A stretch of 59,864 nucleotides of DNA, counting the filler, from Porpidia crustulata (lineage: Eukaryota): the NCBI GenBank assembly GCA_964255105.1. It is 2 parts of 2 records of this genome, joined end to end, with 100 filler letters (N's around TTAATTAATTAA, not from the genome) between each part and the next. Parts side by side here need not be neighbours in the genome. Positions count along the whole stretch, not along the records: positions 1 to 29,904 come from CAXUWE010000023.1; 1 more part is not named here. The stretch is one strand, 5' to 3'. The translations under genes were made by a program, and so were the position numbers. The stretch's first letter is position 1; each line of letters starts with the position of its first letter. The notes beneath the pieces were generated by a model. That model saw only the letters and a list, made by a program, of their open reading frames with translations, had not been told where the DNA came from and did no database searches. This document shows positions 1,350-30,004 of this stretch, in pieces.

Positions 1350-3821
1350 TTACTCTCTTAACGTGGGACAGGACTTTGCGAGGGTCGATGACAAAAGTCG
1401 TTTCTCATTTCGGCTAAAGTCATCGACCCTCGTTGCGTGCCAACCTCCGTACTTCTTCTCAGTTTCTTCACTCTCCTCATCAGCTTCCTCACTCTCCTCA
1501 TCAGCTTCCTCACTCTCTTCATTCTCCTCATCAATTTCTTCAATCTTCTCCTCGAAAGTGCTCTGATACTTCTCTATGTCAAAGTCGTAGCCGAGGGGTG
1601 TTGCCGGTCCACGGTAATAGAATGTGCCGATGCGCCTGTAGGTGTCCTCAGAAGGAGATGGAGGAGGAACAAGAACCTTTTGCACAAGGATGCCCTCGAT
1701 CTCCAGCACAGGTGTTGTGTCGCGATCGAGCATAGGAATGTATCTCTGTAGCTCGACGCAGTAGTAGTCTAGTATCTTTTCCGTGTACATTTTTTCCACA
1801 TCCGCTTCTTCGAAGTCGTAAGCAATGTACAGCCCTGTTTCGAAAGATTGGAGGATGAATTCCTTCGTGTCCGTACGCTTCAAATGTGTTATACCTGTAC
1901 TAGATGGGAGTTCATAATGGATGTAGCTATCTTCTGTGCTGCTAATCTCTGACAGGTTTCCGAGCTCAATTGCGGGGACAACATTGGCCCTTATCGTTAT
2001 GGAAGAACCTTCCTGCAGTTCCCCGAACGCATCAGGGCTCTTTTGCAAAGCATTCATGCTGACAAGCTGAAATTTGTCGTCTGCGCTGAACTTCTTGACA
2101 GTGCGTGCATCACAACGTCTCCAAAAGATTTCACGCTTGGAAGCCCATGACCACGATGGAGCGTAGTAGTTACCGTCAGTCTGCGTGGAAAGAACGGTCG
2201 CCCAACAAAGACCCAGTGGGAGACAATTGCGCCAAAGTCCAGCACAATAAGGGCCTAGAGTGACTCCTTGCTCTTTAGCTTTGCGAGAGACTTCCTGAGC
2301 AAGCCCGGAGAGGGCCGGAAAGATATCACAATGGAAAGTGAGCTGCAGGTTAGTGTAGACTTGAACTAGCTCGTTCCACTCCTCTACAGGACTGGTTTTG
2401 ACCTCCCAGATGGTTCCTTCTTGTCCGCCTGTACCGCAAACGGATACTTTGTCTTGGATCGTGTGCTGAAACGCTGTTCTGTGAATAGAGAATTTGGAGA
2501 CTGCGCTGCATTGGCATTTCAACTCCGTCTTACACTCAAAAAGCATCTCGAGCGGCGTGAAACGAACAGTTCTAGTCGACAACAGCCGCTCCTGAAAAGT
2601 CCAAGCTCGACGAAGTAGAGGCAACTGATGAAGTAGTGTCAACTGGTCCTCCGGAGACACCCAATTTTCATATATAGTATGAATTTCTTTCATGTTCTGA
2701 ACGAGTGTGCAGATTACTTCATGGATCGTGTTTGCCTCAACTGGATCTTTAATTGTCAATACATGGGACAAGGGCGTTCTTTCTGCGAAGAGTCCAGCCG
2801 AACCATTTTCCGCCGAAGACGCAGCAATCGTCATCAAAGCACCACTGTATATTTGCGCCATCTCTGAAGACTGAATAGCCCAGTCTTCAGCGTCGTCTTG
2901 AATGATACATAACGAGTCAATCCAGAGATAGCGAACATGCTGTCGGTGTAAAGCTCTTGCAAAACCAACTGCATCGTAGAAGGTATGAGGTAGGTAATGA
3001 AGGGGTATACCAGCCATTCGATAGACTTTATTTTCAGTCGTAGTCGTGAGCATCGGTTTGCTCCCCCAGCAATGACTCAACGCCAGGTAATGCCCATGAA
3101 AGGCTTCCGTAGACTAAACGAGTCTGACGCTATCACCACATTCCTGCCAATCTTTCGGCGCACTGATATCTATCAGTCTTTTCGGCCGGTAAGTCCGTTG
3201 TTTGCAACCGGCATGTCGCTTCAAATAACGCTTGAGTTGAAGGCGAACGAACTCGAGGGATTCGTTGGAGTAGTCCTCCCTTGGGACATGTGGCGTCAAT
3301 TCTCTAGGAGGGGCTCTCAGGGGACCCAGCACTTTTGTGCCCTTGTAATCTAAGATGTGTCATTCTGTTCGCCTATTCAACCAAAATTCGCTCATCATAC
3401 CTGGAGGATAATGGAACATGAAATTGAGCTCCGGACCATCAAAGCCCCTTATAGGTCTTACAAGCACAGACAAAGACGTCACGGATGGTTTAAATTGGAT
3501 CTGAAGGTTCTTGTGAAGGGGCCGCTTATCGAAATGCAAGATAGCTAGAGTGAATATTCTGCACCCCAGGCAGCCATTTTCCATCGATATCTTGACATCA
3601 GCCCACAATCTCGTGAATTCGTACAGTTCCAACCCCTTTGGACTCGGAATCTTTGCATCGCGGATGCATTGATAACGACAGACTTTGCAGCCCTTAAGCC
3701 TGGGTTCCAATTCCCGAAACCTGGGCTGCATACGGTCGTTGAAGGCTATGAATTTTTCATCCGCATCGCGATCTCTCAGATACTCAAGGACTCCTTCGAA
3801 TTTCTGCAGATTGCTTTCCAT
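1350..3821 (-). pseudogene. HET (heterokaryon incompatibility) domain protein with an in-frame nonsense codon
   Basis: HET motifs are present: YLALSHCWG, YLWIDSLCIIQDD, IYSGALMTIAA, RAWTFQERLLS, APSWSWAS. Exon 1 is 3821-3401 and the GT-AG intron is 3400-3350. A TAG at 3114-3116 interrupts SVRLV*STEAFHGHYLALSHCWG. The C-terminus carries an acidic 21-bp tandem repeat. Confidence 0.85.
1466..1535. repeat. 21-bp coding tandem repeat (EEADEES) in the HET C-terminus
   Basis: tcactctcctcatcagcttcc x2 plus degenerate copies. Confidence 0.8.
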
Positions 3822-4391
3822 GATTTCGCGAGCGACTACACCGGTTGTAGTGCGTTGACATACCGTCTGCCTTGCGTTTCGATATGTCAGTCGCTCTGTC
3901 GAGCAGCTTTTATGTGACTTTGTAACGACGTCAAAATTATACAGCTCAGCTTAGATATTTCCATCGATAATTGTCAGCTCCAATTGATAATGAAGGGAAA
4001 AAGCAATTTACGCTCCTCAGCTTATCTGCCAACGACTGATGAGGAGGTGGATCATACTACTTATCATTTTATGTCATGGTCTCAACTGGTGATGGCTCTA
4101 TGATAGATCTATCATATCGTAACTTTACGATATGATGTCTCAGCGGACTAGTTCCAATTGGGCCTAGCGCGCTATTTCCTTTTTCTACTGCTTCCGCTGT
4201 AATGTATCGAGTTTAAAGCAATTAAACGACTCCTTCTCCATTCACTGAAAAGGCGTCGGCTAGGAAAATTGTTGGTGTAACTGCAGATTTCTCTCCTTAT
4301 AGAATAGTAGGGCTAGGGCTCACGAGAAAATCCTAGGCTAGATCTAGCCTGATATAGGCTAGCCTAGAAGTAGAGATGCAGATTTTGCATC

Positions 4392-5900: not shown

Positions 5901-8053
5901 ATGGACTCGAATACTTCGGTATTACACACCACCGCCCTGCTCGCAGGCGTGCTTGTGACCCTAGGATACCTGCTGTACCGGGCTGCTTTGCCAAAGCCCA
6001 TACCTGGAATACCGTGTGCTCGATATTCCATCAATCGGCTCTTCGGTGATGTACCAGATGCACTCAAGTACCATGCCAAAACCTCCGAGACGGTTGCGTT
6101 CCTCGCCTCGAGGTGCGAAGAGCTCAAGTCGCCCATCGTTCAAGTCTTTGTGCGGCCGTTTTCTCGGCCCTGGGTTGTACTCGCTGATAGCCGCGAGTAA
6201 GTACGATGGAGCCACTTATAGTGATAAGTTTGGAGAACCTGAAATGCTGATCGTCCAGGTCCCAGGATATAATGGTCCGCAGGACTCGAGAGTTCGATCG
6301 CTCTGGCTTTCACAGCGATCTGCTCGGGGCTGTTGTACCTAATCGTGAATGATCCCGAGTGCATTATGTTTGTTCATTGGCTGATGAGATGGATATAGAT
6401 CGTAAGCATTTCAGATGACGGGTGCAGAAGACGAGCTCACTCTCATGAAAGAGGTCGTCATGCGTACAAACGACCAGTGGCGTCACAATCGAAGGCTCGT
6501 TAATGATGCAATGTCTCCTCGATTTCTCAGCAATATCGCTAGTCAGCAGGTCTACAATCAAGCTTTGAACCTTGTCGAGCTGTGGCGGCAGAAAATGCGA
6601 TTAAGCAAAGGTCATGCCTTTAGTCTACGTGCAGATCTTTCATTATGCACAGCCGATTCTATCTGGGCCACAACGTTTGGAGACGATATCGCTGCCTGCA
6701 AAGTGCAAAGCGACTACCTGACGAGTCTCGATAGCATCAAATTACTCGAAGACGAAGAGGCCTTGGCTCAGTTTCCCGCCAAGCCAAATCCAGACGCTTA
6801 CGCTGCCTGGAAAGCGATTAGTGAGAGCGGTGAAATTCCAATGAACTCTCCACTTGGACGCCATCATCACGTAAGCTCGGCAAAGCAAGATGAAAAAGCG
6901 ACTAACAAGGTTCTCTATAGTGGTTCGCCGTCACCTTCTACCCTTACTTACGCCAAGCCATCTCACTCAAGAACAATATCGTCAAAGACAGGGTCGAAAA
7001 GGCCTGGGAAAAAGCCAAGATTGATAATACCAGTGAATCCAATGCAATCGATTCCATCGTTGATCTCGTCATCGATCGCGAAGTCGCATTGGCCAAGAAA
7101 GAAGGCAGGGTGTCAGAGCATGATTCGAAGTTCGTCTACGACGAGCTCGCTGGTTTCATGATCGCGGGAGTCGATCCTACAGCTACGAATATGGGCTGGG
7201 GTCTGAAGTATCTGGCGAAGCACAACGACGTACAGACCAGACTCCGAAAGGATCTACGAGAGGCCTTTCCTAGCGCTTTACAAGAAGGCAAACCCCCCAG
7301 TGCGAATGATATTACCAAAGCTCGTATCCCATACCTGGATGCTTTTATCGACGAGGTATTACGCCATAGCGGCGGCCAACCAACCAACGTCAGAATCGCC
7401 ATCAGCGACACTGAGATTCTGGGGTATCATATTCCCAAGGGAACAGATGTTTTCATGCTGGTCAGTATACCCCCCAAGCCTCTATCGAGCATGCCCTCTC
7501 CTTCATATGTGCTGGTCATGCCATGACCAGCCTCTTTTGACAAATCCAATGCAAGCTCCAGATACTAATCGCACACACAGACGATGGGCCCGAGCTACAA
7601 GTCCCCCGCCTTGCCTATTGACGAGAGCAGCCGAAGCCAAAGTTCTCGCGAATTCAAAAAAGATAGCGAGAAATGGGCTCATGAGGACCTCGGCAGCTTC
7701 AACCCCGACCGCTGGCTGGTCCGAAATGAGCAAGGCGAGATCGAGTACGATAGTCGCGCGGCTCCGATGCAAGCGTTTGGAGCTGGTATGAGGGCATGCT
7801 ATGGTATGTACTCGGTTGTGTCCTTCATCTGTTTATTGTTTACCATTTTCATTATGGCAAGCCATCAGTACTGTTTCTCACCATGTGCACAGGAAGAAAG
7901 CTTGCGTACCTCGAAATGCGCATCATATACGCGCTTGTGATCTGGAATCTGGAGGTCCAACCTCCGCCGGAAGCTTTGTTCGATTTCAAAGCAGTTGATA
8001 AACTCTCGCATCAACCGCAAAATGTGTATATGAGGTTCGATGTACCGAAGTAG
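5901..8053 (+). CDS. Cytochrome P450 monooxygenase (TRI13/CYP526-like N-terminus), about 6 exons
   Basis: N-terminal TM helix followed by ALPKPIPGIP. I-helix AGVDPT, K-helix EVLR, FNPDRW, and heme motif FGAGMRACYG across a splice junction. Approximate introns: 6197-6258, 6346-6398, 6871-6920, 7461-7580, 7805-7892. Confidence 0.93.
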
Positions 8054-10156: not shown

Positions 10157-12181
10157 TTACTCCTCCACTTCTTTAAGAGTGGTCAGGACGACATCGTACA
10201 AGCGTCCCGACCTGATCGACTCGTAGACCCGCGCGTTGTATAGCCCAATGCTCGGCGTGAGACCGTCCAGCGTCACGGCCTCGGTTGACGCTAGGTGCTC
10301 CTCGCCCAAGAACGGAACGCCGAGGTCCTCTCTAATGAAGCGGTATATGCGCAGCGAAGCTGGGCCAATGTACGGGGTCGCGTCGGGCGGGGCGTCCTTC
10401 CGGCCCTCAATCTCTATCGCGCGCAGGTCGAGCGCCTGACACAGCACCAAGAGGTGCGCCGAGGCGATCTGGGACAGCACGTCGACGGCCTCGAGTGTAT
10501 AGCGGGCGGAAACAAGCGCGAGGGAGTTGAGAGACTGGTTACCCATTTCGGCCGTCTGCACATGCGACCCAACGGGGTTGGCCAGAAAGCCCAACTCGGA
10601 CGTGAGGCCGGCAACGACCACGTCGAGCCCCTTGAACAGAAACGAGTCGTTGGGGTCGTCGGAGCACAGATTTGGCGGCAGGCCCCAGCTGGTGGTCGGG
10701 TTGATCATCTCGGTGCACTGGGCGAAAAGCATACGGCCGATGCTCTGCAGGCCCTGGCGCAGCTTCTCGGCCGCCGACGTGACGGCGCGCGCCTGGAAGT
10801 TACCGCCGTGGAACACGCGGCCTGTCGCCGTTTCGATCAGCGGATTGTCCGTCACCGAGTTCAGCTCGATTGTGAGCTGGTCGTGCGCCAGACAAAAATC
10901 TTCCAGCACGGGGCCGATCCACTGGCTGGCCGTGCGGATCGAATAGCGGTCCTGCCGTAGCGTCGCCTCGTTCTGGCTATCGTGCCGGTTCAGCAGCTGC
11001 GACCCGTTCAGGAACGCTTTGATATTTCGTGCACTATCCACCTGCCCAGGGTGCGGCCGCACTTGCGCAATGAACGGCTCGAAGCTCTCGTCACTACCAC
11101 GCAGCGCCTCCACGCTCATCGCCGTCAGCACCTGCGACAGCGCTGCGAGATTAAGGGACTCATGCGCCGCGAGAGCCGCCACGCCGGCCGACACAGCCGT
11201 GCCGTTGACGATGGCAAGGCCTTCTTTGGCGTGCAGACTGATAGGTGCTATGCCGGCCTCCTCCAGGGCGACATCGGCTCTCGTCACTCTCCTAGCGCCG
11301 TCGACGTCCCGTGGACCAGCGCAAGCCGTAGCGGATGACTTGCCTTGCATCACGGCGCCGATCCACGCGAGCGCGCTGAGGTCCCCCGATGCCGAGATGC
11401 TCCCACGGACGGGAATCCGTGGCACGACATCCTTATTCAAGAGGTTAACCAGGGAGTCCGCGATGTCGACCCGAATGCCCGACGCACCACCGGAGAGGGA
11501 ATTGAGGCGGATGATCATGGACGCCCGCGCCCATGACTCCGGCATGCAGGTAGCAGCGAGCGGGTCGTTGAGCGGAAGCGAACTTTTCACCAGCGTGCGT
11601 CGTCGTTGTTTTTTAAGGTCCTTGATGGGATCGGCCACGCCATTACTATGGCTGGGGTGGGTAACGCCGTTACTTTGGTCAAGGTGCGTTACGCCGTTGC
11701 TTCCATTACTTTGGCTAGGATGGGTAACGCCGTTGCTTTGGTCATGATGGGTTACGCCGTTGCTTCCATTGCTTTGGCCAGGATGGGTCACACCGTTGCT
11801 TTGATATAAATGTCCATTGCTCTTCCGGACGGGCTCCTGCTTACCGTCCGAAACGACTCCGCACGTCAGATGACTGATCAGGCTCTGCTGGACCCTCTCA
11901 ACGTCGTTGGATCTCGTATTAGCGCTGCCCCCGAATCCCGTGTTGACGCCGTATATGACATGGCCTTTGGCGACCTTCTCTGGGATGATCTTGCTGCACA
12001 CTTCGATGGCGTTGATGGACTCGGATGTGAGCTCCACATGTTTTAATTGTCTCGAGACTTCCACCACATCGGCGATGGTCAGGCTCCTTCCGTCAACGGC
12101 CAGAGTCGCCTTGGTGGGCAATGAAGGATCACGCCATTGTGAGAGGACTAAGCCTGTGAATGAGGACATTGAAGGGGCCAT
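10157..12181 (-). CDS. Aromatic amino-acid ammonia-lyase (PAL/TAL, MIO enzyme), intronless
   Basis: YGVNTGFGG, MIO motif SISASGDL (11384-11392), KEGLAIVNGT, RPHPGQ, LRQDRYSIR, SVTDNP, HGGNFQ, AEMGNQSLNSLAL. Likely ATG at 12181 (MAPSMSS). Confidence 0.97.
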   Translation of the reverse strand: MAPSMSSFTGLVLSQWRDPSLPTKATLAVDGRSLTIADVVEVSRQLKHVELTSESINAIEVCSKIIPEKVAKGHVIYGVNTGFGGSANTRSNDVERVQQSLISHLTCGVVSDGKQEPVRKSNGHLYQSNGVTHPGQSNGSNGVTHHDQSNGVTHPSQSNGSNGVTHLDQSNGVTHPSHSNGVADPIKDLKKQRRRTLVKSSLPLNDPLAATCMPESWARASMIIRLNSLSGGASGIRVDIADSLVNLLNKDVVPRIPVRGSISASGDLSALAWIGAVMQGKSSATACAGPRDVDGARRVTRADVALEEAGIAPISLHAKEGLAIVNGTAVSAGVAALAAHESLNLAALSQVLTAMSVEALRGSDESFEPFIAQVRPHPGQVDSARNIKAFLNGSQLLNRHDSQNEATLRQDRYSIRTASQWIGPVLEDFCLAHDQLTIELNSVTDNPLIETATGRVFHGGNFQARAVTSAAEKLRQGLQSIGRMLFAQCTEMINPTTSWGLPPNLCSDDPNDSFLFKGLDVVVAGLTSELGFLANPVGSHVQTAEMGNQSLNSLALVSARYTLEAVDVLSQIASAHLLVLCQALDLRAIEIEGRKDAPPDATPYIGPASLRIYRFIREDLGVPFLGEEHLASTEAVTLDGLTPSIGLYNARVYESIRSGRLYDVVLTTLKEVEE
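11636..11803 (-). repeat. Coding minisatellite inside the ammonia-lyase (63-bp / 21-aa period built from QSNGVTH subunits)
   Basis: QSNGVTHPGQSNGSNGVTHHD-QSNGVTHPSQSNGSNGVTHLD-QSNGVTHPSHSNGV. Confidence 0.9.
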
Positions 12182-12915
12182 GTTGATCCAGAACAAGGCG
12201 GGCAGTCAGAAATCCAAGGAAAAGGAGGGGACGATGAAAATACCTTTGTTATACATTCTTTCCCACTTGAAGGTGGCAATTTATAACATTTACTAAAGAC
12301 TTTAACTGCTTAGAAGCGTCATCGCAAGTACCATGAGCAACTATCACATCCGAGCTAGCTTTCCCCTACTTTGCATAACTAGTTTCACGAAGGAATCGAT
12401 GGGTGACGAGACTGTCAGCCGCCAGGGGCTGGGCAGGAGAGTGGGTCCACAAAAGGCTTGATCCTTGGGCTTAGCCTGCTTACGCTCGTGTATCGATCTC
12501 GGGCTTCTCCCGCATCATATGGCGAAGAGGCAAGCAATCCTTTACACGCCAACATGAACATCTTCTAGCGGCCGCACAGAGTACGTATGGTTCGGCCTTA
12601 CATTATGCAGGTCAGCTCAAATAAGCATGGCGAGGCAAGTAAAATCCTCAAGGCAGACCGCGGACCGCTGAGCGGCCTTTGGAGCCTTGTATATAGGCCG
12701 ATAAGGAGATATGAGAGACTCCGCCGTTATCCCGTTCCAAGCTTACCTTCCGATATTGCAGATCGATCCCGGGTTAGGCCGCTTGCTATCTTGGATACCT
12801 AGGTAGGCTGAACGAACGGCACGCTCTATCGTTTGCTAGCTGACTACAGTCGGTGAAGAAAACTAGCTTGATGAACTTCACTGTTATCAAAGCAAATGCG
12901 GTACCCGGAAGGGAA

Positions 12916-13232
12916 CCTTTTATACCTCAGGCGGTCTGAAATTTTTGTAAGTGCGCCAGTAGGGGGGATCCCGTCCGCTAAGCCACATTTTGTCTAGCGG
13001 TTTGGATTTCAAAAATCACGTTCAATTTGTCGTTTCACAACGCATCATTTTCAAAAGAGAAAAATATTTTAAAACAACGAGCAGATGTTTCAATTGATGA
13101 CGTGTCAGTTTTAAATATCTGAATATGTCGTTTTATGTTCAGTGTTTTACTTCAAAATATGATATTATGATCGCGGAAGAGCGATATATTAGTTTTTGAC
13201 CTAAAATTTTAGATCGTCTGAGGTATAAAAGG
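12916..13232. mobile_element. MITE-like element with ~30-bp terminal inverted repeats
   Basis: Left end ccttttatacctcaggcggtctgaaatttt matches the reverse complement of the right end, ccttttatacctcagacgatctaaaatttt (three G/A differences). Interior is AT-rich and non-coding. No clear TSD. Confidence 0.75.
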
Positions 13233-13416
13233 GGCCCCGAGAAGACCAAATCTGTATGTCGAATCACTGCTTGGTCGAAGTATGGCCTTTTGGGGATTCA
13301 TGATGTGCCTTGGCCTACCAATCACCAGATCGGCCAATCCTGACCATTGGGGGCTCTGGTTACATGGGCGATTTATAGATATGTTCATGGTCTATAACAC
13401 TCCCATGTTACAAATG

Positions 13417-14826
13417 TTACAGCATGGATGACTCTCTTGTCCCGTCGATACCATTGTGGGGTTTGACTCCATATCCATGGGTCTTGGAAAAGTTTTTCCA
13501 CGCCACTCGTCCACTTTCTGCAGCGTCGTACTCCCAGAGCCACTTGAACAGCTCATGATCTGCACCCGCACGAAATTTTGCATCGCGTTTCTCCTGGTCT
13601 GGGCCATCGGCAAAGGCAAATTTAGCCTTCTGGTCTAACGTGCGATGTCTGACATCCGAAGCTCGTGGTTTGCGAACCTCCTCGAACACCCTAAGGGCGT
13701 CCGGAATTTGGTCACGTCCCACCGGCAGGCTGAATATCCCTCCGAGGACTCCTGCATCCTCGAAGGCCTGTGCGGCACCCTGTGCGCTGAAGAGGAGTTA
13801 GCCAGTTCCATGATGAATAAAGAGACCATGGTTATACTTACAGGCATGGCAGTATTGCGTGAGCAGCGTCGCCAATCAGTACGAAGCGTCCACTCTCATG
13901 GCGCCATTGGGTCGGCTCATGGATCTGGAACAAAGTCCACTTGGTGCAAACAGACCCTTCCACATTGATAAGCTCATGAAGTACTGGGTCCCAGTCAGAG
14001 ATCTTGCTCCTGAACTCTTCTAGGTCTGCTCGCTGCGGCCCGTACATAACCTTGCCACTGCCACCCTCGGCATATACTAGGACTATATTAAGTATATCGT
14101 GCTGGATGAGGTACGAGACCACGTGTCCGCCTGATCCCATCCAAAAGTTGACGCTAGATCGTTTTTTCAGGTCCCAGGCTAGATGGTCTTCAGTTATATC
14201 TACTACAGGGACAGAGATCCGGTAGACGACATCGCCAGGACTGTAAGGAGGGTCCGCATGGCCCAACAGGATACCCCTACAGCGGGACCTCTCTCCGTCA
14301 GCACCCAGGATCACGTCTGCTTCATAAACCTCGCCGGTGGACAAACGGAGGGAGGGCTTGCTGAAATCGATCTCTTCGACGTCGCTGCCAAGTCTGACGT
14401 CTATCTTCTGCTTCCTCGCTCCGGACAACAAGGCTCTTAGGAGATCCGCACGATGAATCACGAGGTAAGGGGCCTTGTTGACCAGCCTCGGATCGGACAC
14501 GGGCGGAGACTGCGAGAGCACGTCTCCTCGATAGGAGCGGAACGTCCCGGCCTCGGGTCGGTCAGCGTACTTGAGGACCTCCTCAAGAACGCCCCAGCGT
14601 TGGAGCATCCGCGTAGCATTGGGTGCCAACTGAATTCCAGCGCCGATCTGTTAAAACTAAGTTAAAATAAGCTCGAATGTTATATCGAAAAGCATGAGAT
14701 TACCTCTTGTAGCTTAGAACTACGCTCGAACACTGTTACGCGGTGTCCAGCCTGAGCAAGAGCCAGTGCTGAAGCCAGTCCACTGAGACCGCAGCCCACA
14801 ACTAGGACACGACACTTGTACGCCAT
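13417..14826 (-). CDS. FAD-dependent aromatic monooxygenase (group A, salicylate hydroxylase / hydroxybenzoate 1-hydroxylase-like), 3 exons
   Basis: Exon 1 MAYKCRVLVVGCGLSGL (GxGxxG). IGAGIQLAPNATR, GADG motif, and LIGDAAHAILPCLAQGAAQAFEDA after splicing. Confidence 0.93.
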
Positions 14827-15390
14827 GTTAGGAATTGAAGGTGACAATTCCTTGTAGTTCCATAAGAATTTTAGAAAGATTATAACTTTGGTACTGGCCG
14901 TTTTTCAAAACAGGTACCTGGCGGGGAGAAAAAATACCGGCTTGGAAAATAACAGCAGGGTAAAAGTAACGGTTAAGTAATCTGATGCACATGAATTTTG
15001 TAGAACCCATTCCGCCTTTCCCGTGCTGACAATTATGCATAAGCCAGGATTATTTAGCATCCATCATGCATTTAGAGGCGGCCATAGTACTTCGAGTCTG
15101 TTGCGTGTCAGGGTGCCAATTGACTAGTTGTGATAACACGATCCATGATAACCACGCCTCACCGGCGCAGAACATAGGTATCATTGAAGTGAGCAATAGG
15201 GGGAAATATGCAAAAGTATACTGTCTATTTATGATCAAGAAAGAAAATTAATCTATCGGGAACATAATGGAACGGGCAGTCGAGCCATTCTATCTAGGGT
15301 ATGTGTTGTGGTTGTGTGATGAACCAAGTCTAGAGGAGGAAAAAGCCGCTCGATCACAGATCTATGTGGCCACCTCCGTCTATAGAATAA

Positions 15391-17041
15391 TCATACAAAG
15401 GCAGGAACAATTTCAGCTAAGCTCATTGTCGAGGATAATTTACTGCGATAGCTAATGTTATTCCACCCGGCGAGGTCATCCTGGGCCCAGGAAGCCTGCA
15501 GCAGTTTTTTACAATGATTGAAAGATCGCGACGAGCTCAGCTTCTCTGTCCGGAGGATGACGTCGAGGATACCGGCCCGTTGGTCATCAGTTCGCGACTC
15601 ACAGCCAATGATGTAAATGGGAAATTGCTGTTTACAGGAGCTCAGCCGGGGCAAGATAGCGAAGGCCTGGTCGATTTGCTGTTGCGTCCTAATGGGTTGG
15701 TCGATTAGGCCTTCGGAACATCGATTGAGATACAAGAGCATAGCAAGCTGGTATAGCTTCATCACCAACGTCGCATTACCGCTATCCTCTGTGACTTTTG
15801 GTATTGGTAGGCTCCTGATTCTCCAATCCAACACTTCTACGAAGTTCTTATGATCATGCACATCGTCGCTCGTTTCCGGCGAGGTTGCGCTGCTGGATAC
15901 TGTATCACATACTTGAGACAGCAGATTCAGCATGGAGAGAATGGGCGGCGGAAGATTGGAAATCTGGAATGTTAAACATCAGACCAACACGTCATGTAGT
16001 CATATAATCTGTATCATATACGAACCTGCGGACAGAAGTGATCTGTCGGAGTGAATGGGAGCTCCGGGGCCCCTTCTCTTTTCCAATGCAGTAGTGAAAA
16101 TCGAGCGCAAACATCGTGGTAGTGCAGCCAGTCCAGCAGGACGGCCACATCAGAGCTGAACTGAAGTAGTGTTTTGATAGAGGACGCGTTGATGACTGTC
16201 TTGACACCGTCGAGGTATTGCGTCCATTGACCTGAAGTACAGGATGCCTGGTGAACCTCAAACGAACAAAGCAACATCCCCGTGCCAATATGCTGAATAG
16301 CCCCTATCGCCCCAAAACTCGGCTCGAAAGATCCTTGCGCTAGGCTTCCCAGAGCAGCAATTTTTGCTTCGACGGCTTGGGGTTGTAAGCCGTAGCGATG
16401 TAGTGAAGAAAAGGCTATCAGCGCCTGGAATAGTGCCGCAGCCGAGGCCGTCTTCCCTTCCAGGCTAATTCGAAGCAGGATTTTTCCGAGCTTAGTGGTG
16501 TCTTGACCAAAGGTAGCCAGGGATGCGGACGCTACACAGCAAACTACACGTGGCGTACATGAACCTATCAGTACTCCCTTCCAATCTGTGACTAAGCTCG
16601 GTAGGTAGCTATACGGGATGTACGCAACATACAGTATTCAAGCAGATCTGAATCAAGAGTGTCCAGATCAGACTGGTTCCAGCACGTTGATGCGTCTAGA
16701 AAAGACAGGGTTCGTACCGGGACAGAGCCTGTCAGGTTGTGGTACAATTCCATATCCCAATGGGTTGTGTGAACAAACCGTGCATCTGAGATTCGGCCCT
16801 GCTTGGGAGACGACGGAAACGACTTGGAGACGACAGCACGCCGACGATCGTTGGCACCCGGCCAGGATAGCTTGAGGTTATGCCACAGGCATTTCCGATT
16901 GGATCGAGAGCAGTTTGTACAGTTCGGCTTGGTGCGATCGCAACTGATGGCACGACCTGGCCCGAATTAGTGGGCTTCCTACTTCTCCTGGGGCCGCGAC
17001 CACCTACCTTTACACGTGGCACAGCCGTTGAGGACAGGCAT
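15391..17041 (-). CDS. Zn(II)2Cys6 transcription factor with fungal-specific TF C-terminal domain (probable cluster regulator)
   Basis: Splicing the micro-exon MPVLNGCATCK onto GRAISCDRTKPNCTNCSRSNRKC gives a complete C6 cluster. Downstream MLLCSFEVH...WTQYLDG and FPIYIIGCESRTDDQR are typical of the Fungal_trans_2 type. Confidence 0.9.
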
Positions 17042-17075
17042 GTAGTACTAAATGTTCCGGATTGGATACTTGTAG

Positions 17076-17371
17076 TGCATAAGAACAGGACTCGGTGGAC
17101 GGTCTTATATTTGCAAAGTTGCCATTTGCACGGCTTCGGCGTTACACTACCTTAGCGAACACAGGAAGCTGACTGTGTCATGTAAGGGCGGTCAAGTACG
17201 CTTTCTGTGAGATGTTCAGGGTCGGTTACCTGCATTGCATAAGAGCAGGGTTCGGTGAACGCCTTATGTTTGTAAAGTTGCCATCTGCACTGCTTCGACG
17301 TTAGACTACCTTAGCGGACATAGGAAGCTGACTGTTTCATGTGGTGGCAGTCAAGTACGCTTTCTGTGAGA
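17076..17371. repeat. Tandem duplication (160-bp period, ~135 bp conserved) just upstream of the TF start codon
   Basis: tgcataagaacagg...tacgctttctgtgaga at 17076-17211 and again at 17236-17371, with scattered substitutions. Confidence 0.88.
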
Positions 17372-18630
17372 CATACTTGTAAAGTATTTGGTTGGTTATG
17401 TCGTTTCATCCAAAGCTGACGATCAAATGCCGCATGGAGACAGGGTGCATACCGCTGGCAATGCACACTCTGACACAAGGTACCCATTTTGTAATTATAA
17501 CCATTTTGAAAGACTTGGCAACAGGCAACAGGCAACCATAGAGTAAGTTGCCGAAACAAACGCCAACCATAAATTGCCGAAACAGACGCCAACCGTCGAC
17601 TTTCAAGGTTCCGAGATCGCAGTTTGCTCCACGTCCAGTTGCTAATTGGCATAGCTCGTGTTGGCGAATCAGGTGGCAGCAATTAGGCAATTGGTCAACA
17701 TAAAGCATTTGTTATGGTGATCGTTTATATTGATGTAGATGGTAAATATGAAAGGGGTTCTGGAGAGGTGAAAACTCTGCATTCCTACTAGCGCTAAATA
17801 AGCGAGATGATAGGGCTAGCCTGGTAGGGCCGGAAACTTCCAACCCAGTATCAGCACTAAAATGGAGCGCTGTATGCCAACAGCTCGTAAGACTTATCAA
17901 CAAGTGCGAGCACAAGCCTGCGTGCCTGTATCCCGGATTCGCATGCGTGTCCTCCTCGGATCATAGTCGGAGTCTGACACACTATAGTGATCTTCAAAGA
18001 AAAAGAAGAAGTGGAAGCTGGCAGAAGTAGGAAAGGCGGTAAGTTCGAGAGAGATGATCTGCCAAGGCTTGCCTTGTGTGATGCAATGTAACGTCAGGTC
18101 TGTAGAAATGGCAAGTTCATAAATATCATGCAAATGTTAAAGCTCCGAAAAGGCGGCTTATCAGCGGCTAACACACCAACTTTACGTCCGCGCCCTTACA
18201 AAGTACTACGGTAAGTTCCAGAATCACACAACAGGGGCGGAAGCAGGGAGCTTGATTGGTCAGCATCCTCGTCCCGCCCCCTGTCCCCGAGAGCGTACTA
18301 ACAATCATTATGGGACCTACCGTAGTACAAAGTAATATCACAATCCTCAAGCCGCGCGGCGCCGAAAGAGCTCTTTTGAAGCTGAAGATTGGCTATCTTG
18401 TAGCTTCGATGAAGGCTTATACCTTCAAAAGTGACTGACGATCCCACAAGTCCTGGACTTTGCTCTCGGAAGCTGTGTGCAAGACATTCACCCTTGGTGG
18501 AAGTCTAATGTGTCAGCACGGCCAAATATACGCTCTAGAGCGTCAGCTAAGCTGATACCGACCTCAGCCCGAGGCTTCCAATCTGGGCTGAGCCTCAGCC
18601 AAAGCGCCAGGGCTCACATCTGTTGTACGT

Positions 18631-18879
18631 CACGCGGGTGAAGAAAAAACCGATTGTTAGGAGGTTCATCCGCCCTGAAGAATTTCATCAAATTTACAAG
18701 CAAATCTGATTCAAATTTATTAAAATAACGATTATAATAAGTCACAACACGTAATCTATCGAGAGTCTGATTAGTTATTTTCTTATTAAAGCTTATGGTG
18801 TAATAAATTTGATGAGATTTCTTGTGGCGGGTCTGATGGATGAAACCTTTGAACTATCAGTTTTTCCTTCACACGCGTG
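18631..18879. mobile_element. Foldback/MITE-like element with long imperfect TIRs
   Basis: cacgcgggtgaagaaaaaaccgattgtt...ttcatcaaattta pairs with taaatttgatgaga...aactatcagtttttccttcacacgcgtg. AT-rich core. Confidence 0.75.
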
Positions 18880-18885
18880 TATGTG

Positions 18886-19825: not shown

Positions 19826-21609
19826 ATGGTCACTACCAAGTCCTTGATCGTGGCTTATGGCCTCGCCCTCCTGCCGCTGCTCGTGAGCAGTTCTCCCATC
19901 GTGCCTCGTTATTTTCAGAGAAACCTGTACTCGCGAGACAACATGACTGCAAGCACGGTCAAGACTGAGCTGGGCCGGCAACTTTCAAAAGGCTCGCTGA
20001 TCTTTGGACCTGATAGCGCCCTGTACCCAAATGCCACAGAAAGATGGAATACTCGTATCACGCCTAATGCTCAAGTTGTCGTGCAACCAGCAGCCGAGTC
20101 CGACTTTGCACATATTGTGAGTGGCCTATTCAGGAGATCCTTGAGAATTTGATGATATTCCTGCTGACTCTAGTCAACATAGGTCAAGTACTGTAATGAT
20201 AATAGCTTCGAGTTCCTCGTGAGGAATCGTGGTCATGGAACAACGGACTCCTTGTCAACTTTCTCTGGTATAGAAATCAATGTGGAAATGCTTACGGGCG
20301 TTACTATTCAGCCGGATAAGAAGACTGCTATACTCCAAGCAGGAACATTTATAGGTGAAGTCATAAACAAGCTTTGGGACCAGGGCTTTGTTGCCGGTAA
20401 GCGCTCTTTTACTCATTGAAAAGTTTCACCACTGATATTGATTTCGCTAGCCACTGGATCCGCAGGATGCGTTGGACTGATGGGTGCAGCACTGGGTGGT
20501 GGCCACGGGCGTTATGAGGGCCTCTACGGCTTGGTCCTGGATAACATTGTGCATTACAATGTTGTCTTGGCAGATGGCACAGAGCTCGGTGTAAATGAGA
20601 CAAGCCACCCGGATCTTCTCTATGCCTTGAAAGGGGCTGGTCACAACTTTGCCATCGTCACCAGTGTTGTGGAGAAGATTTATCCTCGGGAAAATTGGTA
20701 CCAGAAGACCTACACTTGGACGCAGGATAAGCTGGAGACTGTATTTGAAGCGCTGAACAAGTTCCACAAAAGTGCCAATGGCACCACACCTGTCAGGATG
20801 GGTGTCAGCTACGGGTCCATCATTATGAATACGTCCATTAGCACTACTGAAGTGAGTAGTCTTTTACCTCCACTTCAAGATTATTGCTGATTATGACCAG
20901 GCAGTGCTAGAGTGGGGCTTTGAATACGCCGGCCCTGCTGCTGACGCGGAAAAGCTCCTGGGACCATTCAATGCCATCAAGGCTATCCAAGTGGGCTCGG
21001 GCGAAGCCTCATACCCCGTTATATCTGGAGCCGACTATACCTTTTGTCCTGGCGCCAAGCGAGCCATCGCCAGTGTCATGACACTGGAGTATAACGCTAC
21101 AACAGAACGTGCGCTCTATAATCTTTTCAACAAGAACATAGCCAAGTACCCTGCACTCATTCCCTCCGCCTATCTTTGGCACGAAGGCTACGCGACTGCC
21201 GGCATGCAGGCCATACCTTCCGCCTCCACCGCCTACCCTCACCGCGAAGAAAACCATTTGCTGTAAGTCGTCCCCGGTCTGTGCGATGGGCACGTCTTAT
21301 TGTACATGTGATCAGGGAGATTAATTTTGTATCTACAGGGTCTTCTTCAGCGAAGTTCCGGCAGGGTCTGGCCTGACGGACGCGGCAGAGGCGTGGGCCC
21401 AGGAGAACCGGAGACTTTGGAACGCCGGCCAGCCCAACCGTCAGCCACAGACGTATGTGAATTACGCCCAGGGTAAAGACTACGAGACGCCTCAATCCGT
21501 CTATGGTTATGAACCATGGCGCTTGGACAAACTGCGCTCGCTCAAGGCGAAATACGATCCACATAACCGTTTCCGCTTCTTTGAGCCTATTGTATCTGGT
21601 TCGTCATAG
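19826..21609 (+). CDS. Secreted FAD-linked oxidoreductase (FAD_binding_4 plus berberine-bridge-enzyme-like C-terminus), about 5 exons
   Basis: Signal peptide MVTTKSLIVAYGLALLPLLVSS. RNRGHG carries the covalent-flavin His. Also CVGLMGAALGGGHGRYEGLYG, GAGHNFAIVT and YVNYAQG...WRLDKLRSLKAKYDPHNRF. Confidence 0.93.
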
Positions 21610-21671
21610 GTTCGACCCGCGGGGGGACTGCTTATTTCTTTGGAGCATGGTATATAACGGAGGCGATAATT

Positions 21672-21768
21672 TCATAGTTTTGTATTGGTACGGCATAGAT
21701 TGAAACCGCGGCAGACTGCTCATATTTTTGTATTGGTACGACATAGATTGTAAACTGCAGCGGGCTGC
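21672..21768. repeat. ~48-bp tandem duplication in the 3' flank of the oxidase gene
   Basis: tcata(g/t)ttttgtattggtacg(g/a)catagattg x2. Confidence 0.7.
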
Positions 21769-22678: not shown

Positions 22679-23656
22679 TTACACCCACTGCTTATTTCCG
22701 AAATGCGAGACGAATGCACCGGCATACCCAGACTCGATGCTGGCCCTCTCCCAGAGGTCCCTGATAGTCTGAACGGCTCCTTCGACGGGGACTGGACCCT
22801 TGAAGTGAGGCGCGTAGGTTTGAGCCCTGCCCACGAATTTCATCAACCCCTCGGTCTGTTTTGGAGACACTGTGGGAACATTTTAGTAAAATGTTCGGAT
22901 GTTTCTCGGGAACGGAGGTACATACGGTCGCCAAAGTGGCCCACTTCCACCACTCCCGGGCTCAAACTGAAGACGAGCACGCCGTCTTTCTTGTATTGTG
23001 CGCTGAACTTGGCCACAATGATGTTCAAGGCCGCCTTGGAGGCAGCGTACAAGGCAGAATTCTCAATGTCGAAACCGTTGATGAATTCAAGATCGGCATG
23101 ACCACTGGTGATGGCGATGACCTTCTTGGTCTTGCTCTTCAATACAAGAGGCATGAAAAGGTTGAAGAAGTGGATGTTACCGGTGACATTGGTCTTGAAT
23201 AGTTTGTCTGCAATGTCGTCGAGCTCCTCATGCTGTTCGCCTCTGTGAAACAAACATCGTTAACCTCAAATAGTAATCAGAGGGAAGTAGACCTACAATT
23301 CACCAATAGCTGAATAAGCGTCGAACTGGGCGGGGAAACCTGCGTTGCCGACAAGGTAGTCAATGCCACGCTCGCCAACGATCTTGGCAGTCTCGGCAGC
23401 GGCTTGCTTCAGACTGGCATAGTTGGTGAGGTCTCCATGGACGATGTGGACGTTGGAACGCTTGCCCAGGTCTGTTGTCACCTTCTGTTCAGTGGCGGCC
23501 TTGTTACGGACCAAACCGACGACCAGGTTCTGCGGGTCTTCGGAGATGCTCTTGAGGAAGCCAAACTAGGCCAGATTAGACAGAGGCCAGGCGCGACCAG
23601 GCAGGCATACTCACGCCGATTCCGCTGGACACCCCGGTAATTACATAGACAGACAT
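22679..23656 (-). CDS. Short-chain dehydrogenase/reductase, about 4 exons
   Basis: Exon 1 MSVYVITGVSSGIG (TGxxxGxG), IDYLVGNAG, catalytic YAASK, LSPGVVE, and end FVSHFGNKQWV. Confidence 0.92.
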
Positions 23657-24721: not shown

Positions 24722-26423
24722 ATGTATTCGATCGAAAGCTCGTACTACCCCTTTCTGGGACTTTTTCTTTTTTTATGCAGCAGCTGTGTAGCACTCGTTC
24801 AATTCTTGAAACCCACCGACTTGAAACGGTCCGGTGGCAGGAAGAGATGGGCAATGCCACCAGGGCCACCAGGCCTACCAGTCTTAGGAAACTTGTGGCA
24901 GATGATGCAAGCCCGCCGAGGCGGAGCCCTTTCTTTCAATGAGTGGGTGAGTTTCAAACCTGTCGAACACAAGCACGTGCCTGGATCTGAACGTCCTGCA
25001 GCTATCCTCCTTGATACCGTATGGTGAAATGGTGACGCTTCATATGGGATCTAAGACTTGGATTGTGCTCAACTCGGACCGCGTCGTCTCGGAGCTCATA
25101 GCCAAGCGAGGGAAGATTACCAACGAGAGACCCCAGATGCCCATCGCGAGTGATCTTGTGAGCAATGGAAAGCGCACAGTCATAAGGCAAGAAGAAGAAT
25201 GGCGAGAGGGACGCCGCGTGATGCATCAGCTGCTCAGCGGCTCGAATCTCCAGGTCTACGCTGGCATGCAGGAGCTCGAGAGCGTGGACATGCTGCGCCG
25301 ATATGTTCGGGAGCCCAACCTGTGGTTTTCTCACAACTTTCGATATGCCACGTCCGTTCTTTACAGAATCGTCATGGGCTACCCATTGAACAAGACCAGA
25401 GCGGCGCTAGATGACTATCAGAGGGTGACAATCGAGTTTGTCACGACCATCAACCGTAGTTATGTGGATTTCTTCCCTTCGCTTAGCAAGCTACCCCATC
25501 TCCTACAACCTTGGCGGCATTACTGGGCTCAGATGGGCTCGTTCCATCGCCGTGTCTTTCAGCAATGGTGGGACCCCATCAGAGCGGCCGTGAGTAAGGG
25601 CTCGGCGCCGCCCTCGTTTGTCCGCGACGTTCTTCTAAATCCGGATACAAAGTACTCTGGCGATGATGAAGAGGCCATGTATCTGGCTACGTCTGTCATG
25701 GCAGCTGGTGGTGACAACACACGCATGACGATCAACACATTCATTATGGCCATGATCACGCACCCCGAAGCCCAGGCTCGGGCACGCGAAGAAATCGATC
25801 GAGTGTGCATGAGCGGTCGCTCGCTCAGGCTTCCCCGGATGTCCGATCTTTCGGAAATGCCTTACGTAGCCGCTATGATTAAAGAGACCTTACGTTGGCG
25901 ACCGACCGTCCCCATCGTTCCACCCCACCAAGTCACCGAGAACCTTGAGTTTGATGGGCACTTCATCCCTGCCGGCACAGTCTTACTGATCAATTCGATA
26001 GCACTGTCGAGCGAATTTGAGAATGCCCATGAGTTCCAGCCGGAGAGATGGATTGATGGCTCGGAAGCCAGAACGACAAATAACTTCTGGGGGTTCGGGG
26101 GCGGCCGTCGGATCTGCGTCGGCTGGAAGGTTGCGGAGCAAGCTTTATTCATTTCATTTGCTCGTTTGCTTTACTGTTTCGAATTGAGTCCGGTTTGTTC
26201 ACCTTTGCCTCTGGTCCATCACCTTGGTTCTGAGCGACGGATCACTAACGCATGAGATGTCTAGCGCGGGCCTATCGACAGCGAGAGACTCAACCACCAA
26301 ACTGTCAACGAGCCATTCCCTGTCAAGGCCACCGTTCGCAGCGCCGAACACGCATCGCTCATCGAGGAGGAAGCATCCAAGTACGAAGCTTCATTCTCTA
26401 AATTCGGGTCGAGGGCCAAGTGA
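24722..26423 (+). CDS. Cytochrome P450 monooxygenase (aromatic-substrate type), 3 exons
   Basis: TM helix, MPPGPPGLPVLGN, I-helix AAGGDNT, KETLRWRP, FQPERW, heme motif FGGGRRICVG. Last exon ends ...FGSRAK with TGA at 26421-26423. Confidence 0.95.
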
Positions 26424-28166: not shown

Positions 28167-29573
28167 ATGGCTTCTTCAATCACTTCGAACGGTGTGGGCC
28201 ACGCGGCTAAGGCTCTACCGATCCTGGATGAGGTCAATCAAGAGATCCGTTCTGATGGTGAGGACCGAGCCTTCTGGTGGGAAACCATGTCCGGAACTCT
28301 GGCCACGCTCCTCCAGGCAAATCAATACAGCGATGAAGCGCAACGTCACTATCTCCGTTGGTTTCAGAAATGGGTTCCCCCGGCTCTGGGGCCACGTCCT
28401 GTCAACGGCAAACCCTATTACGGTTCATGGCTAACTCATGATCTGTCGCCCTTCGAATTCAGTATCAACTGGAAAGAGAAGAGTCGCAAACAAATCGTCC
28501 GCTTTACCTTTGAACCAACTACGAAGCAGGCAGGGACAGCCACCGATCCCATCAACCAGCTGGGGACAAAAGAGTTTATGAACACAATCTCGAAAGACGT
28601 ACCGGGTCTGGATCTAATACGATTCAATCAGTTCCTCGAGGCAACCAACGTACCCAGCGATGGCGTGGACGATGCCATAGCAAAGCACCCACCCAACTTC
28701 CCACGGTGCCGCGCCGTCCTCGCCTTCGACCTGGAGCACTCCGGCGACCTCATGGTTAAATCATACTTCCTGCCGCACTGGCGCGGGCTTCAGAGCGGGA
28801 TCCCGGCCAAGACCATCATCTCCGACGCGGTCCGGGCATGCAACGGGCCCGACGGGTTGTCGTACGATGGATCGGTGGATGCCATCATGTCGTACCTGTC
28901 GACGTTCGAAGGGCAGGAGGACGCGCCGCTGGCCTGGCTTCTCGCCAACGACTGCGTGGCCGACACGCCCGGGATGCGCCTCAAGGTCTACATCCTCGCC
29001 GAGGCGGACTCGCTCACCAAGCTCAACGACATGTACACCCTGGGCGGCCGCCTGAAGGGCGTCCGCACCGCCGCCAGTCTCGAGGGCATCCGTGAGTTAT
29101 GGTACCACCTGTTCGGCCTCAGCGGCTTGGACCCAGCCGCTAACGACAAGGTCTGCGTCGACAAGATGAAGTGCGTTTTCGTCTATGAGATGCGCTCCAC
29201 GCACGGCTCGGAGCCCGACCTCGATGTCAAGCTCCACCTTCCAATGTGGCAGCTCGGGAAATCGGATGGGCAGCTTAGCGAGATGATGGCTTCTTGGTTC
29301 GAGAGCCACGGTCATCCTGATCTCGCCGCCAGGTATAAATCCGACTTGAACAAAGCATTGTCCGTCTCCCCCTTTTCTTTCCTTTCCCCACCTTATTGTG
29401 TTTTTCATCAAGTTGGCCCAGAAGCTAACATGTGGTTTCAAAGTCCCAAGCACGGAATTACAGAAAATAAGGGTGTAGGAACCCATACTTGGCTGTCCAT
29501 CACCCACACGCCGAAGACGGGGCTTTATATGACTATGTATCTCAGCCCGAAACTCCCCGAAGTCTACTACTGA
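28167..29573 (+). CDS. DMATS-superfamily (ABBA-fold) aromatic prenyltransferase, one in-frame intron at 29360-29443
   Basis: FWWET, ALGPRP, SPFEFSINW, VRFTFEP, AGTATDPINQ, LAFDL, VKSYF, RLKVY, YTLGGRL, YMTMYLSP. The late intron position is typical of DMATS genes. Confidence 0.95.
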   Translation: MASSITSNGVGHAAKALPILDEVNQEIRSDGEDRAFWWETMSGTLATLLQANQYSDEAQRHYLRWFQKWVPPALGPRPVNGKPYYGSWLTHDLSPFEFSINWKEKSRKQIVRFTFEPTTKQAGTATDPINQLGTKEFMNTISKDVPGLDLIRFNQFLEATNVPSDGVDDAIAKHPPNFPRCRAVLAFDLEHSGDLMVKSYFLPHWRGLQSGIPAKTIISDAVRACNGPDGLSYDGSVDAIMSYLSTFEGQEDAPLAWLLANDCVADTPGMRLKVYILAEADSLTKLNDMYTLGGRLKGVRTAASLEGIRELWYHLFGLSGLDPAANDKVCVDKMKCVFVYEMRSTHGSEPDLDVKLHLPMWQLGKSDGQLSEMMASWFESHGHPDLAARYKSDLNKALSVSPFSFLSPPYCVFHQVGPEANMWFQSPKHGITENKGVGTHTWLSITHTPKTGLYMTMYLSPKLPEVYY

Positions 29574-29904: not shown

Positions 29905-30004
29905 NNNNNNNNNNNNNNNNNNNNNNNNNNNNNNNNNNNNNNNNNNNNTTAATTAATTAANNNNNNNNNNNNNNNNNNNNNNNNNNNNNNNNNNNNNNNN
30001 NNNN
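29905..30004. other. Artificial contig-joining linker (N44-TTAATTAATTAA-N44, stops in all six frames)
   Basis: Exactly 100 bp with the 12-mer at 29949-29960. Confidence 0.95.

What the first reader, a model, noticed from the sequence alone, without database searches (positions are those of the whole stretch)
11855..11885. Ammonia-lyase has His-Leu at the substrate-selectivity switch, pointing to tyrosine ammonia-lyase activity
Seen: QQSLISHLTCGV (His codon 11870-11872, Leu 11867-11869). Known: this position is Phe-Leu in strict plant PALs, His-Gln in bifunctional Rhodotorula-type PAL/TAL, and His-Leu (His89) in Rhodobacter sphaeroides TAL. Inference: the enzyme may make p-coumarate directly from Tyr, supplying a phenol for the DMATS without a cinnamate 4-hydroxylase. 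A fungal TAL would be useful for biotechnology.
Basis: partly seen in the sequence, partly recalled or inferred. Interest (0 to 1): 0.72.

Follow-up and report, generated by a model that had tools for sequence, protein, structure and literature searches.

The report
Lichen Phe/Tyr lyase in enyne cluster
The histidine is real, but it is the normal residue in a widespread fungal enzyme family that probably strips ammonia from both phenylalanine and tyrosine; here the enzyme feeds a known type of alkyne-terpenoid gene cluster that appears to have moved sideways between lichen fungi.

Summary
His104-Leu105 (11870-11872, 11867-11869, minus strand) is real and sits at the switch: it aligns with RtPAL His137, sorghum PTAL His123 and RsTAL position 89. 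It is not unusual. All 119 of the 120 closest homologues that cover the site have it, and grass bifunctional PTALs carry His-Leu too. The enzyme also has the second PTAL determinant (Ile before the catalytic Tyr) and the PAL-type Glu484 equivalent. Its neighbours match the asperpentyn/biscognienyne (aty/bis) enyne clusters: a BisI/AtyI-type P450, a BisB-type DMATS (70.5%) and an AtyC-like SDR. Published atyH primer ends match this lyase clade. AtyH is reported to deaminate Phe in vitro and to give p-coumarate in yeast. Best reading: a bifunctional PAL/TAL that supplies 4-hydroxybenzoate precursors (0.68). A Tyr-preferring TAL is possible (0.15). Direct hand-over of coumarate to the DMATS is unsupported, because BisB prenylates the hydroquinone siccayne. 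Side findings: the enzyme lacks the ~100-residue shielding domain. The cluster looks horizontally shared among lichen fungi of two classes, and homologues are spliced in lichen metatranscriptomes. No UbiA or cupin gene was found on this contig, and the product is unknown.

The parts
11867..11872 (-). His104-Leu105, substrate-selectivity switch (RtPAL H137-Q138, SbPAL H123-L124, RsTAL H89)
   Evidence: 119/119 homologues covering the site
10157..12181 (-). Aromatic amino acid ammonia-lyase, 674 aa, one exon, AtyH/BisK type; MIO triad Ala264-Ser265-Gly266, Tyr77, Tyr413, Asn326
   Evidence: TIGR01226 PAL 547.3 bits against cut-off 519.15; AlphaFold model pLDDT 86, best fold match RtPAL
11951..11956 (-). 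Ile76-Tyr77: Ile equivalent to Ile112, the second PTAL determinant, next to the catalytic Tyr
   Evidence: Ile in 119 of 119 covering homologues
10547..10549 (-). Glu545, equivalent to parsley PAL Glu484 / RtPAL Glu496 (PAL/PTAL type; Asn in bacterial TAL/TAM is recalled, not checked)
   Evidence: Glu in 120 of 120
11640..11803 (.). In-frame 63-nt tandem repeat (2.6 copies) giving a disordered insert after the switch helix; length varies among homologues
   Evidence: (residues 124-200 pLDDT<50)
5901..8053 (+). Cytochrome P450 (P450a, 587 aa model); role and cluster membership untested
13417..14826 (-). FAD monooxygenase, salicylate-hydroxylase-like; candidate AtyG/BisD-type decarboxylative hydroxylase (orthology not shown)
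15391..16970 (-). Zn2Cys6 transcription factor (5' end approximate)
19826..21609 (+). Berberine-bridge-like FAD oxidoreductase, 5 exons
   Evidence: three of its four introns listed as joints in RNA contigs of relatives
22679..23656 (-). Short-chain dehydrogenase, AtyC/BisF-like (both termini match those encoded by the atyC primers)
24722..26423 (+). P450b, 524 aa, orthologue of the enyne-forming BisI/AtyI: 76% to PFICI_01577, the published BisI/AtyI homologue
28167..29573 (+). DMATS prenyltransferase, 440 aa, BisB orthologue (70.5%); intron 29360-29443
29905..30004 (.). N spacer: the contig ends about 330 bases after the DMATS; what follows is another contig
   Evidence: the window's own protein is recorded on a 29904-base contig

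Best explanation
The gene encodes a bifunctional phenylalanine/tyrosine ammonia-lyase of the AtyH/BisK clade. Its MIO cofactor (Ala-Ser-Gly 264-266) and Tyr77 remove ammonia from Phe (giving cinnamate) and from Tyr (giving p-coumarate); His104 binds the phenol OH of Tyr, helped by Ile76. The acids are shortened by host enzymes to 4-hydroxybenzoate. That is prenylated, converted to the 1,3-enyne by P450b, decarboxylated to a siccayne-type hydroquinone by the FAD monooxygenase, prenylated by the BisB-like DMATS and tailored by the SDR, the BBE-like oxidase and perhaps P450a. Shown here: residues, fold, gene content, orthology of P450b and DMATS, conserved linkage, spliced RNA of homologues. Inferred: every activity, AtyH orthology (from primer-encoded ends and context), the FMO role, and who performs the first prenylation (no UbiA on the contig).
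For: Switch His plus Ile before the catalytic Tyr, the pair sufficient for PTAL activity in plant PALs. His-Leu plus an acidic residue at the 484 site resembles grass PTAL. Passes the TIGR01226 PAL cut-off and fails the HAL, PAM, TAM and bacterial TAL cut-offs. The atyH primers encode an N-terminus ending RMF and a C-terminus TTNGNHV; the His-Leu homologue P0048 ends in exactly these 7 residues and 10 of the 120 best hits begin M-x(2-4)-RMF. AtyH: Phe to cinnamate in vitro, p-coumarate in yeast. Lyase and P450b homologues have consecutive locus tags or accessions in 7 assemblies of Aspergillus, Penicillium and Trypethelium; atyH and atyI are also neighbours in the aty map labels. Lyase and DMATS lie 5-8 locus tags apart in Gyalolechia, Xanthoria calcicola, Letharia and Endocarpon, and 2 apart in Monosporascus.
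Against: No member of the lichen branch has been assayed. The full AtyH and BisK sequences were not seen and the primary paper was not available, so AtyH's own His-Leu and its Tyr kinetics are inferred. No UbiA prenyltransferase or cupin was found among 96 intergenic frames of 58 aa or more on the contig. The FMO termini do not match those of the atyG primers. Close homologues also sit in unrelated contexts (L001 beside a tannase-like esterase; Pestalotiopsis beside an amidohydrolase); in 9 metagenome loci the only other cluster-gene hit was one distant P450 at 27%. The Tyr453-equivalent in the pocket is Phe514 in 117 of 117 scored homologues, with unknown effect. A cluster lyase can be specialised for neither Phe nor Tyr (PpnC).
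Confidence: 0.68

Rival explanations
1. Tyr-preferring or strict TAL, like RsTAL, that makes p-coumarate directly and avoids a cinnamate 4-hydroxylase.
For: His-Leu and Ile76; no evident cinnamate 4-hydroxylase in the cluster, since P450b is an enyne P450 and P450a has no assigned role; AtyH gives p-coumarate in yeast; compact architecture like bacterial enzymes.
Against: AtyH deaminates Phe in vitro; His-Leu enzymes of grasses are bifunctional; Glu at the 484 site; bacterial TAL models score far below their cut-offs.
Confidence: 0.15
2. Effectively Phe-specific PAL; the His is a clade trait with little Tyr turnover, and hydroxylation comes later (for example by a host benzoate 4-hydroxylase, recalled).
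For: Reviews describe AtyH as a PAL and the pathway as starting from Phe; His alone gave only about 10% of PTAL efficiency in plant PALs; Phe514 replaces a pocket Tyr.
Against: The second determinant Ile is present; p-coumarate forms in yeast, which has no cinnamate 4-hydroxylase (the yeast fact is recalled).
Confidence: 0.1
3. PpnC-type lyase acting only on O-prenyl or O-alkyl tyrosine made by the DMATS (penipratynolene logic).
For: The ppn cluster has a similar gene inventory: DMATS, two P450s, lyase, reductase, BBE-like enzyme; PpnC ignores Phe and Tyr. Some lichen DMATS are Tyr O-prenyltransferases.
Against: This DMATS groups with BisB; P450b is a BisI/AtyI orthologue, whereas PpnB and PpnD were said to resemble no known P450; no methyltransferase found on the contig. 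The ppn sequences could not be seen.
Confidence: 0.04
4. Aminomutase making beta-Tyr or beta-Phe.
For: Same MIO fold; Taxus PAM is among the top sequence hits and also has Ile before the catalytic Tyr.
Against: No NRPS or acyltransferase on the contig to use a beta-amino acid; aminomutase models fail their cut-offs; the aty/bis pathway needs the acrylate.
Confidence: 0.03

Closest known systems
AtyH (asperpentyn cluster, Aspergillus sp. PSU-RSPG185) and BisK (biscognienyne B cluster, Biscogniauxia sp.)
   Same: Ammonia-lyase in a cluster with an enyne P450, SDR and FMO; the primer-encoded ends of atyH match this clade; atyH was amplified from genomic DNA, in line with an intronless gene.
   Different: Lichen branch, 73-80% identical to most full-length non-lichen members; longer repeat insert; this contig has a BisB-type DMATS and a BBE-like enzyme but no UbiA or cupin.
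Grass and graminid PTAL (SbPAL1 6AT7, ZmPAL1, JaPTAL)
   Same: His-Leu at the switch and Ile before the catalytic Tyr.
   Different: Independent fungal lineage; lacks the shielding domain; Phe instead of Tyr at the Tyr440/453 site.
Rhodosporidium toruloides PAL/TAL (1Y2M, 1T6J)
   Same: Best PDB hit by sequence (E 1e-119) and fold (TM 0.77); His at 137, Glu at 496.
   Different: Gln138 instead of Leu; has about 100 extra residues (552-652) that are absent here.
Rhodobacter sphaeroides TAL (2O6Y)
   Same: His at the switch; compact, no shielding domain (the latter recalled).
   Different: Distant (E 5e-44 against 1e-119 for RtPAL); bacterial TAL family models are not passed.
PpnC (penipratynolene cluster, Penicillium polonicum)
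   Same: Cluster lyase beside a DMATS, two P450s, a reductase and a BBE-like enzyme.
   Different: Acts only on O-alkyl-Tyr; its DMATS is a Tyr O-prenyltransferase about 30% like SirD; sequences not seen.

Membership tests
MIO-dependent aromatic amino acid ammonia-lyases | Ala-Ser-Gly MIO triad, catalytic Tyr residues, PF00221 fold | tested here: met
Eukaryotic PAL (TIGR01226) | Score above curated cut-off | tested here: met
   547.3 against 519.15
Eukaryotic PAL (TIGR01226) | C-terminal shielding domain of about 100-120 aa | tested here: not met
   alignment jumps RtPAL 551 to 653; 92 residues after the ALDLR motif against about 175-235 in most full-length representatives; TM 0.92 over the 536-aa Anabaena PAL
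Bifunctional PTAL | His at the 137/140 site | tested here: met
Bifunctional PTAL | Ile at the 112 site, before the catalytic Tyr | tested here: met
   the determinant was established in plant enzymes only
Bifunctional PTAL | Measured turnover of both Phe and Tyr | not testable with these tools
   only indirect, through AtyH
Strict bacterial-type TAL (RsTAL, BagA, FlxA) | His89 equivalent | tested here: met
Strict bacterial-type TAL (RsTAL, BagA, FlxA) | Family model cut-offs; Asn rather than Glu at the 484 site (marker recalled) | tested here: not met
   231.8/1000 and 207.5/700 bits; Glu545
Strict bacterial-type TAL (RsTAL, BagA, FlxA) | Strong kinetic preference for Tyr | not testable with these tools
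   the probable orthologue AtyH acts on Phe
AtyH/BisK orthologues | Full-length sequence identity to AtyH or BisK | tested here: inconclusive
   only 8 N-terminal and 7 C-terminal residues known from primers; both fit clade members; neither name appeared in the lists
aty/bis enyne-meroterpenoid clusters | Enyne-forming P450 (AtyI/BisI) | tested here: met
   76% to PFICI_01577, itself 78-79% to AtyI and BisI as published; termini resemble those of the atyI primers
aty/bis enyne-meroterpenoid clusters | BisB/IacE-type DMATS and AtyC/BisF-type SDR | tested here: met
   70.5% to BisB; SDR termini match atyC
aty/bis enyne-meroterpenoid clusters | Decarboxylating FAD monooxygenase (AtyG/BisD) | tested here: inconclusive
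   right family and size; termini differ from atyG; no direct comparison possible
aty/bis enyne-meroterpenoid clusters | UbiA prenyltransferase (AtyB/BisJ) and cupin epoxidase (AtyE/BisC) | tested here: not met
   none among 96 intergenic frames; short exons could be missed, the contig ends after the DMATS and no genome is held
ppn (penipratynolene) cluster | Tyr O-prenyltransferase, PpnB-type P450, methyltransferase | tested here: inconclusive
   ppn sequences unavailable; best characterised relatives point to bis/aty; no methyltransferase found
Aminomutases (PAM, TAM) | Family model cut-offs | tested here: not met

The most novel reading that the evidence does not exclude
The clade is a compact, shield-less fungal lyase that prefers Tyr (an efficient fungal TAL), and in lichen fungi it opens a horizontally shared, transcribed enyne-meroterpenoid pathway that has lost the UbiA and cupin genes, so that the DMATS does the first prenylation and the product is an alkyne-bearing lichen metabolite not yet described. 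The horizontal-sharing part alone I put at about 0.75; the whole statement is less likely.
Probability: 0.15. Interest if true: 0.65.

Novelty: new member of a known kind. Interest (0 to 1): 0.33.

Why it matters
What remains worthwhile is that hundreds of natural variants of a compact fungal lyase with both PTAL determinants have, as far as my searches show, no kinetics on record, so they are cheap candidates for coumarate production. The surrounding cluster also predicts an alkyne-bearing meroterpenoid in common lichens, shared across fungal classes, for which my searches found no report.

Tried and rejected
No whole genome is held, so UbiA and cupin genes elsewhere in the genome could not be sought. 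The single-sequence fold was useless (pLDDT 34); the alignment-based fold was used. The ppn cluster was my first lead and was set aside once the DMATS and P450b matched BisB and BisI/AtyI. The metagenome scan gave 9 loci, none from the lichen branch and none with the cluster. Atlas searches named only the broad families of the FMO and P450a. Cluster-member look-ups did not turn up AtyH, BisK, AtyI or BisI by name. Chen et al. 2020 was not held. Literature searches for His-Leu in fungal lyases (0 papers; 44: 2; 82: 1 unrelated), for AtyH (2) and for lichen enynes (0; 25 of 371 listed, one relevant) found no description of this lichen cluster; the supplements of the lichen DMATS paper had none of 5 terms. 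Earlier scan findings: nothing. The careful tree did not finish; quick and FastTree trees were used. Depths come from contigs of related organisms and were not used to rank expression. Contig 2 genes (beyond 30004) were rejected as cluster parts.

Full report
Observation. The window is a join of contigs; the first ends at 29904. It carries an intronless ORF at 12181-10157 (-), a 674-aa aromatic amino acid ammonia-lyase. A PDB search with the 48 residues around the site aligns the His without gaps to RtPAL His137 (next Gln) and sorghum PTAL His123 (next Leu), and by range to parsley PAL 137 and Joinvillea 140. For RsTAL the range gives position 89, and the wild-type entry outscores entry 2O78 (the H89F mutant, recalled) by 3.8 bits. 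The site is the known selectivity switch (passages of PMC9002059 and PMC8773403).

Is it unusual? No. Of the 120 best homologues (those with a name are all ascomycetes; nearly all 70-97% identical), 119 have His-Leu and one is a fragment without the site. Among 150 representatives at 50% identity, 73 had the anchoring motif: His-Leu 14, His-Gln 10, Met-Gln 7, Phe-Leu 5, His-Thr 5, others fewer; 4 of the 14 belong to this clade and some rows are out of register.

Rest of the active site. The MIO triad (264-266), Tyr77, Asn326 and Tyr413 are intact. Ile76 precedes Tyr77 in 119 of 119 covering homologues. In plants His140 alone gave about a tenth of PTAL efficiency, while His140 plus Ile112 at this position gave full PTAL behaviour (bioRxiv 10.1101/2024.11.06.622220, passages); carrying that over to a fungal enzyme is inference. 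Glu545 equals parsley Glu484 (120 of 120), the PAL/PTAL state (the Asn of bacterial TAL/TAM is recalled). Phe514 replaces the Tyr453 of plant enzymes. The protein passes the PAL model and fails HAL, PAM, TAM and two bacterial TAL models. The alignment-based model (pLDDT 86) matches RtPAL best (TM 0.77) and covers the short Anabaena PAL at TM 0.92. About 100 residues of RtPAL (552-652, the shielding domain; name recalled) have no counterpart, and a 63-nt tandem repeat encodes a disordered insert.

Neighbourhood. Gene models: P450a, lyase, FAD monooxygenase, Zn2Cys6 factor, BBE-like oxidase, SDR, P450b, DMATS. The DMATS is 70.5% identical to BisB, its best characterised hit. BisB adds a prenyl to siccayne, a hydroquinone, after a UbiA enzyme, an enyne P450 and an FMO have acted on 4-hydroxybenzoate (PMC12720273, passages and part of section 6). 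P450b is 76% identical to PFICI_01577, which PMC8998291 gives as the homologue of BisI and AtyI at 78-79% (passages). Primers in the supplement of PMC12356543 (parts 6, 7 and 9 read) encode protein ends. Those of atyC match both ends of the SDR; those of atyI resemble P450b; those of atyH (start ending RMF, end TTNGNHV) match the His-Leu clade: P0048 ends identically and 10 of 120 start with the RMF pattern. The window's own protein has the lichen-type ends, so the link runs through the clade. Lyase and P450b homologues carry consecutive locus tags or accessions in 7 assemblies, and 28 pairs that I picked by eye share a contig length (not a count over all hits). Against a complete aty/bis cluster: no UbiA or cupin among 96 intergenic frames, FMO ends unlike atyG, and homologues in unrelated contexts.

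What the relatives do. AtyH converts Phe to cinnamate in vitro, and yeast expressing it makes p-coumarate (one search agrees on Phe). Yeast has no cinnamate 4-hydroxylase (recalled), which implies Tyr deamination. I saw this only through reviews and a later paper; the primary paper was not held, and its data on Tyr may sharpen or change this. A cautionary case is PpnC, a cluster lyase that ignores Phe and Tyr and acts on O-prenyl-Tyr (PMC13232330, parts 1-3 of 8, legends and passages; supplement unreadable). The ppn inventory is similar, but the enzymes here match bis/aty.

Mechanism. Most likely (0.68) a bifunctional PAL/TAL that raises the supply of cinnamate and p-coumarate, shortened by host enzymes to 4-hydroxybenzoate for an enyne-hydroquinone meroterpenoid. 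Rivals: Tyr-preferring TAL 0.15, Phe-specific PAL 0.10, PpnC type 0.04, aminomutase 0.03. All activities are inferred.

Spread among lichens. Named lichen lyases are 88.5-93% identical over full length. They form one branch (100 SH-aLRT) inside a group rich in Xylariales (98-99, quick trees). Endocarpon (Eurotiomycetes) falls inside the Lecanoromycetes lichen branch for lyase, P450b and DMATS, and holding the 8 Eurotiomycetes lyases together is rejected (p-AU 1.7e-91; group chosen after an earlier tree suggested it). GC3 is 0.74 for the lyase and 0.71 for the DMATS against 0.41-0.50 for five other frames. Contigs of other organisms align through non-coding DNA at over 90%. Lyase and DMATS are 5-8 locus tags apart in four lichen genomes. 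Hidden paralogy or contamination of lichen assemblies is not excluded. Contigs from three lichen metatranscriptome studies cover the lyase and skip the predicted introns of the BBE, SDR, P450b and DMATS homologues, so relatives transcribe the cluster; these are not the window's organism. PMC11443524 (passages, first part of results, supplement search) notes lichen DMATS grouping with a siccayne prenyltransferase but, in what I read, does not describe this cluster. Searches found no account of it; subscription journals are largely not covered. PMC8341276 and PMC11376284 were seen as passages only.

Verdict. Real residue, correct position, ordinary for the clade: a new member of a known kind. 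Interest 0.33, carried mostly by the unassayed shield-less lyase clade and the shared lichen cluster with unknown product.

Noticed in passing
window 10157-10400 (-): The lyase lacks the ~100-residue shielding domain of eukaryotic PALs; the gap is similar in most close homologues that could be scored.
   Followed up: partly
window 10157-29573: Cluster genes are 85-95% identical across lichen fungi of two classes, with Endocarpon nested among Lecanoromycetes, high GC3 and alignable intergenic DNA: likely horizontal transfer, possibly from a Xylariales-type donor.
   Followed up: partly
window 26424-28166: Endocarpon, Polycauliona and Usnea have one predicted gene between P450b and DMATS; here no family hit, and a related contig has about 830 unaligned bases where this one has about 480. 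A cupin or UbiA gene may have been lost.
   Followed up: partly
window 17300-19300: An RNA contig of a relative covers this gap with one GT-AG-type joint (18101-18326); no Pfam hit in any frame. Possibly an eroded gene or long UTR.
   Followed up: no
window 11640-11803: In-frame tandem repeat of variable length inside the lyase, disordered in the model.
   Followed up: partly
window 1350-3950 (-): HET-domain gene with an acidic repeat tail at the left of the cluster.
   Followed up: no
window 55999-59223 (-): Pieces of a reducing polyketide synthase (KR, ACP, AT-like frames) that look fragmented, on a later contig.
   Followed up: no
L001 212-14300: A 76% identical His-Leu lyase sits beside a tannase/feruloyl-esterase-like gene, a P450, an SDR and an FAD monooxygenase (read by eye), suggesting reuse in phenolic catabolism.
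   Followed up: no
P0146; P0346, P0359: Close DMATS or P450b homologues are filed under Acinetobacter baumannii and Phytophthora cactorum on 1-1.5 kb contigs (probable contamination) and under the basidiomycete Mycena sanguinolenta on a 1.7 Mb contig (possible further transfer).
   Followed up: no
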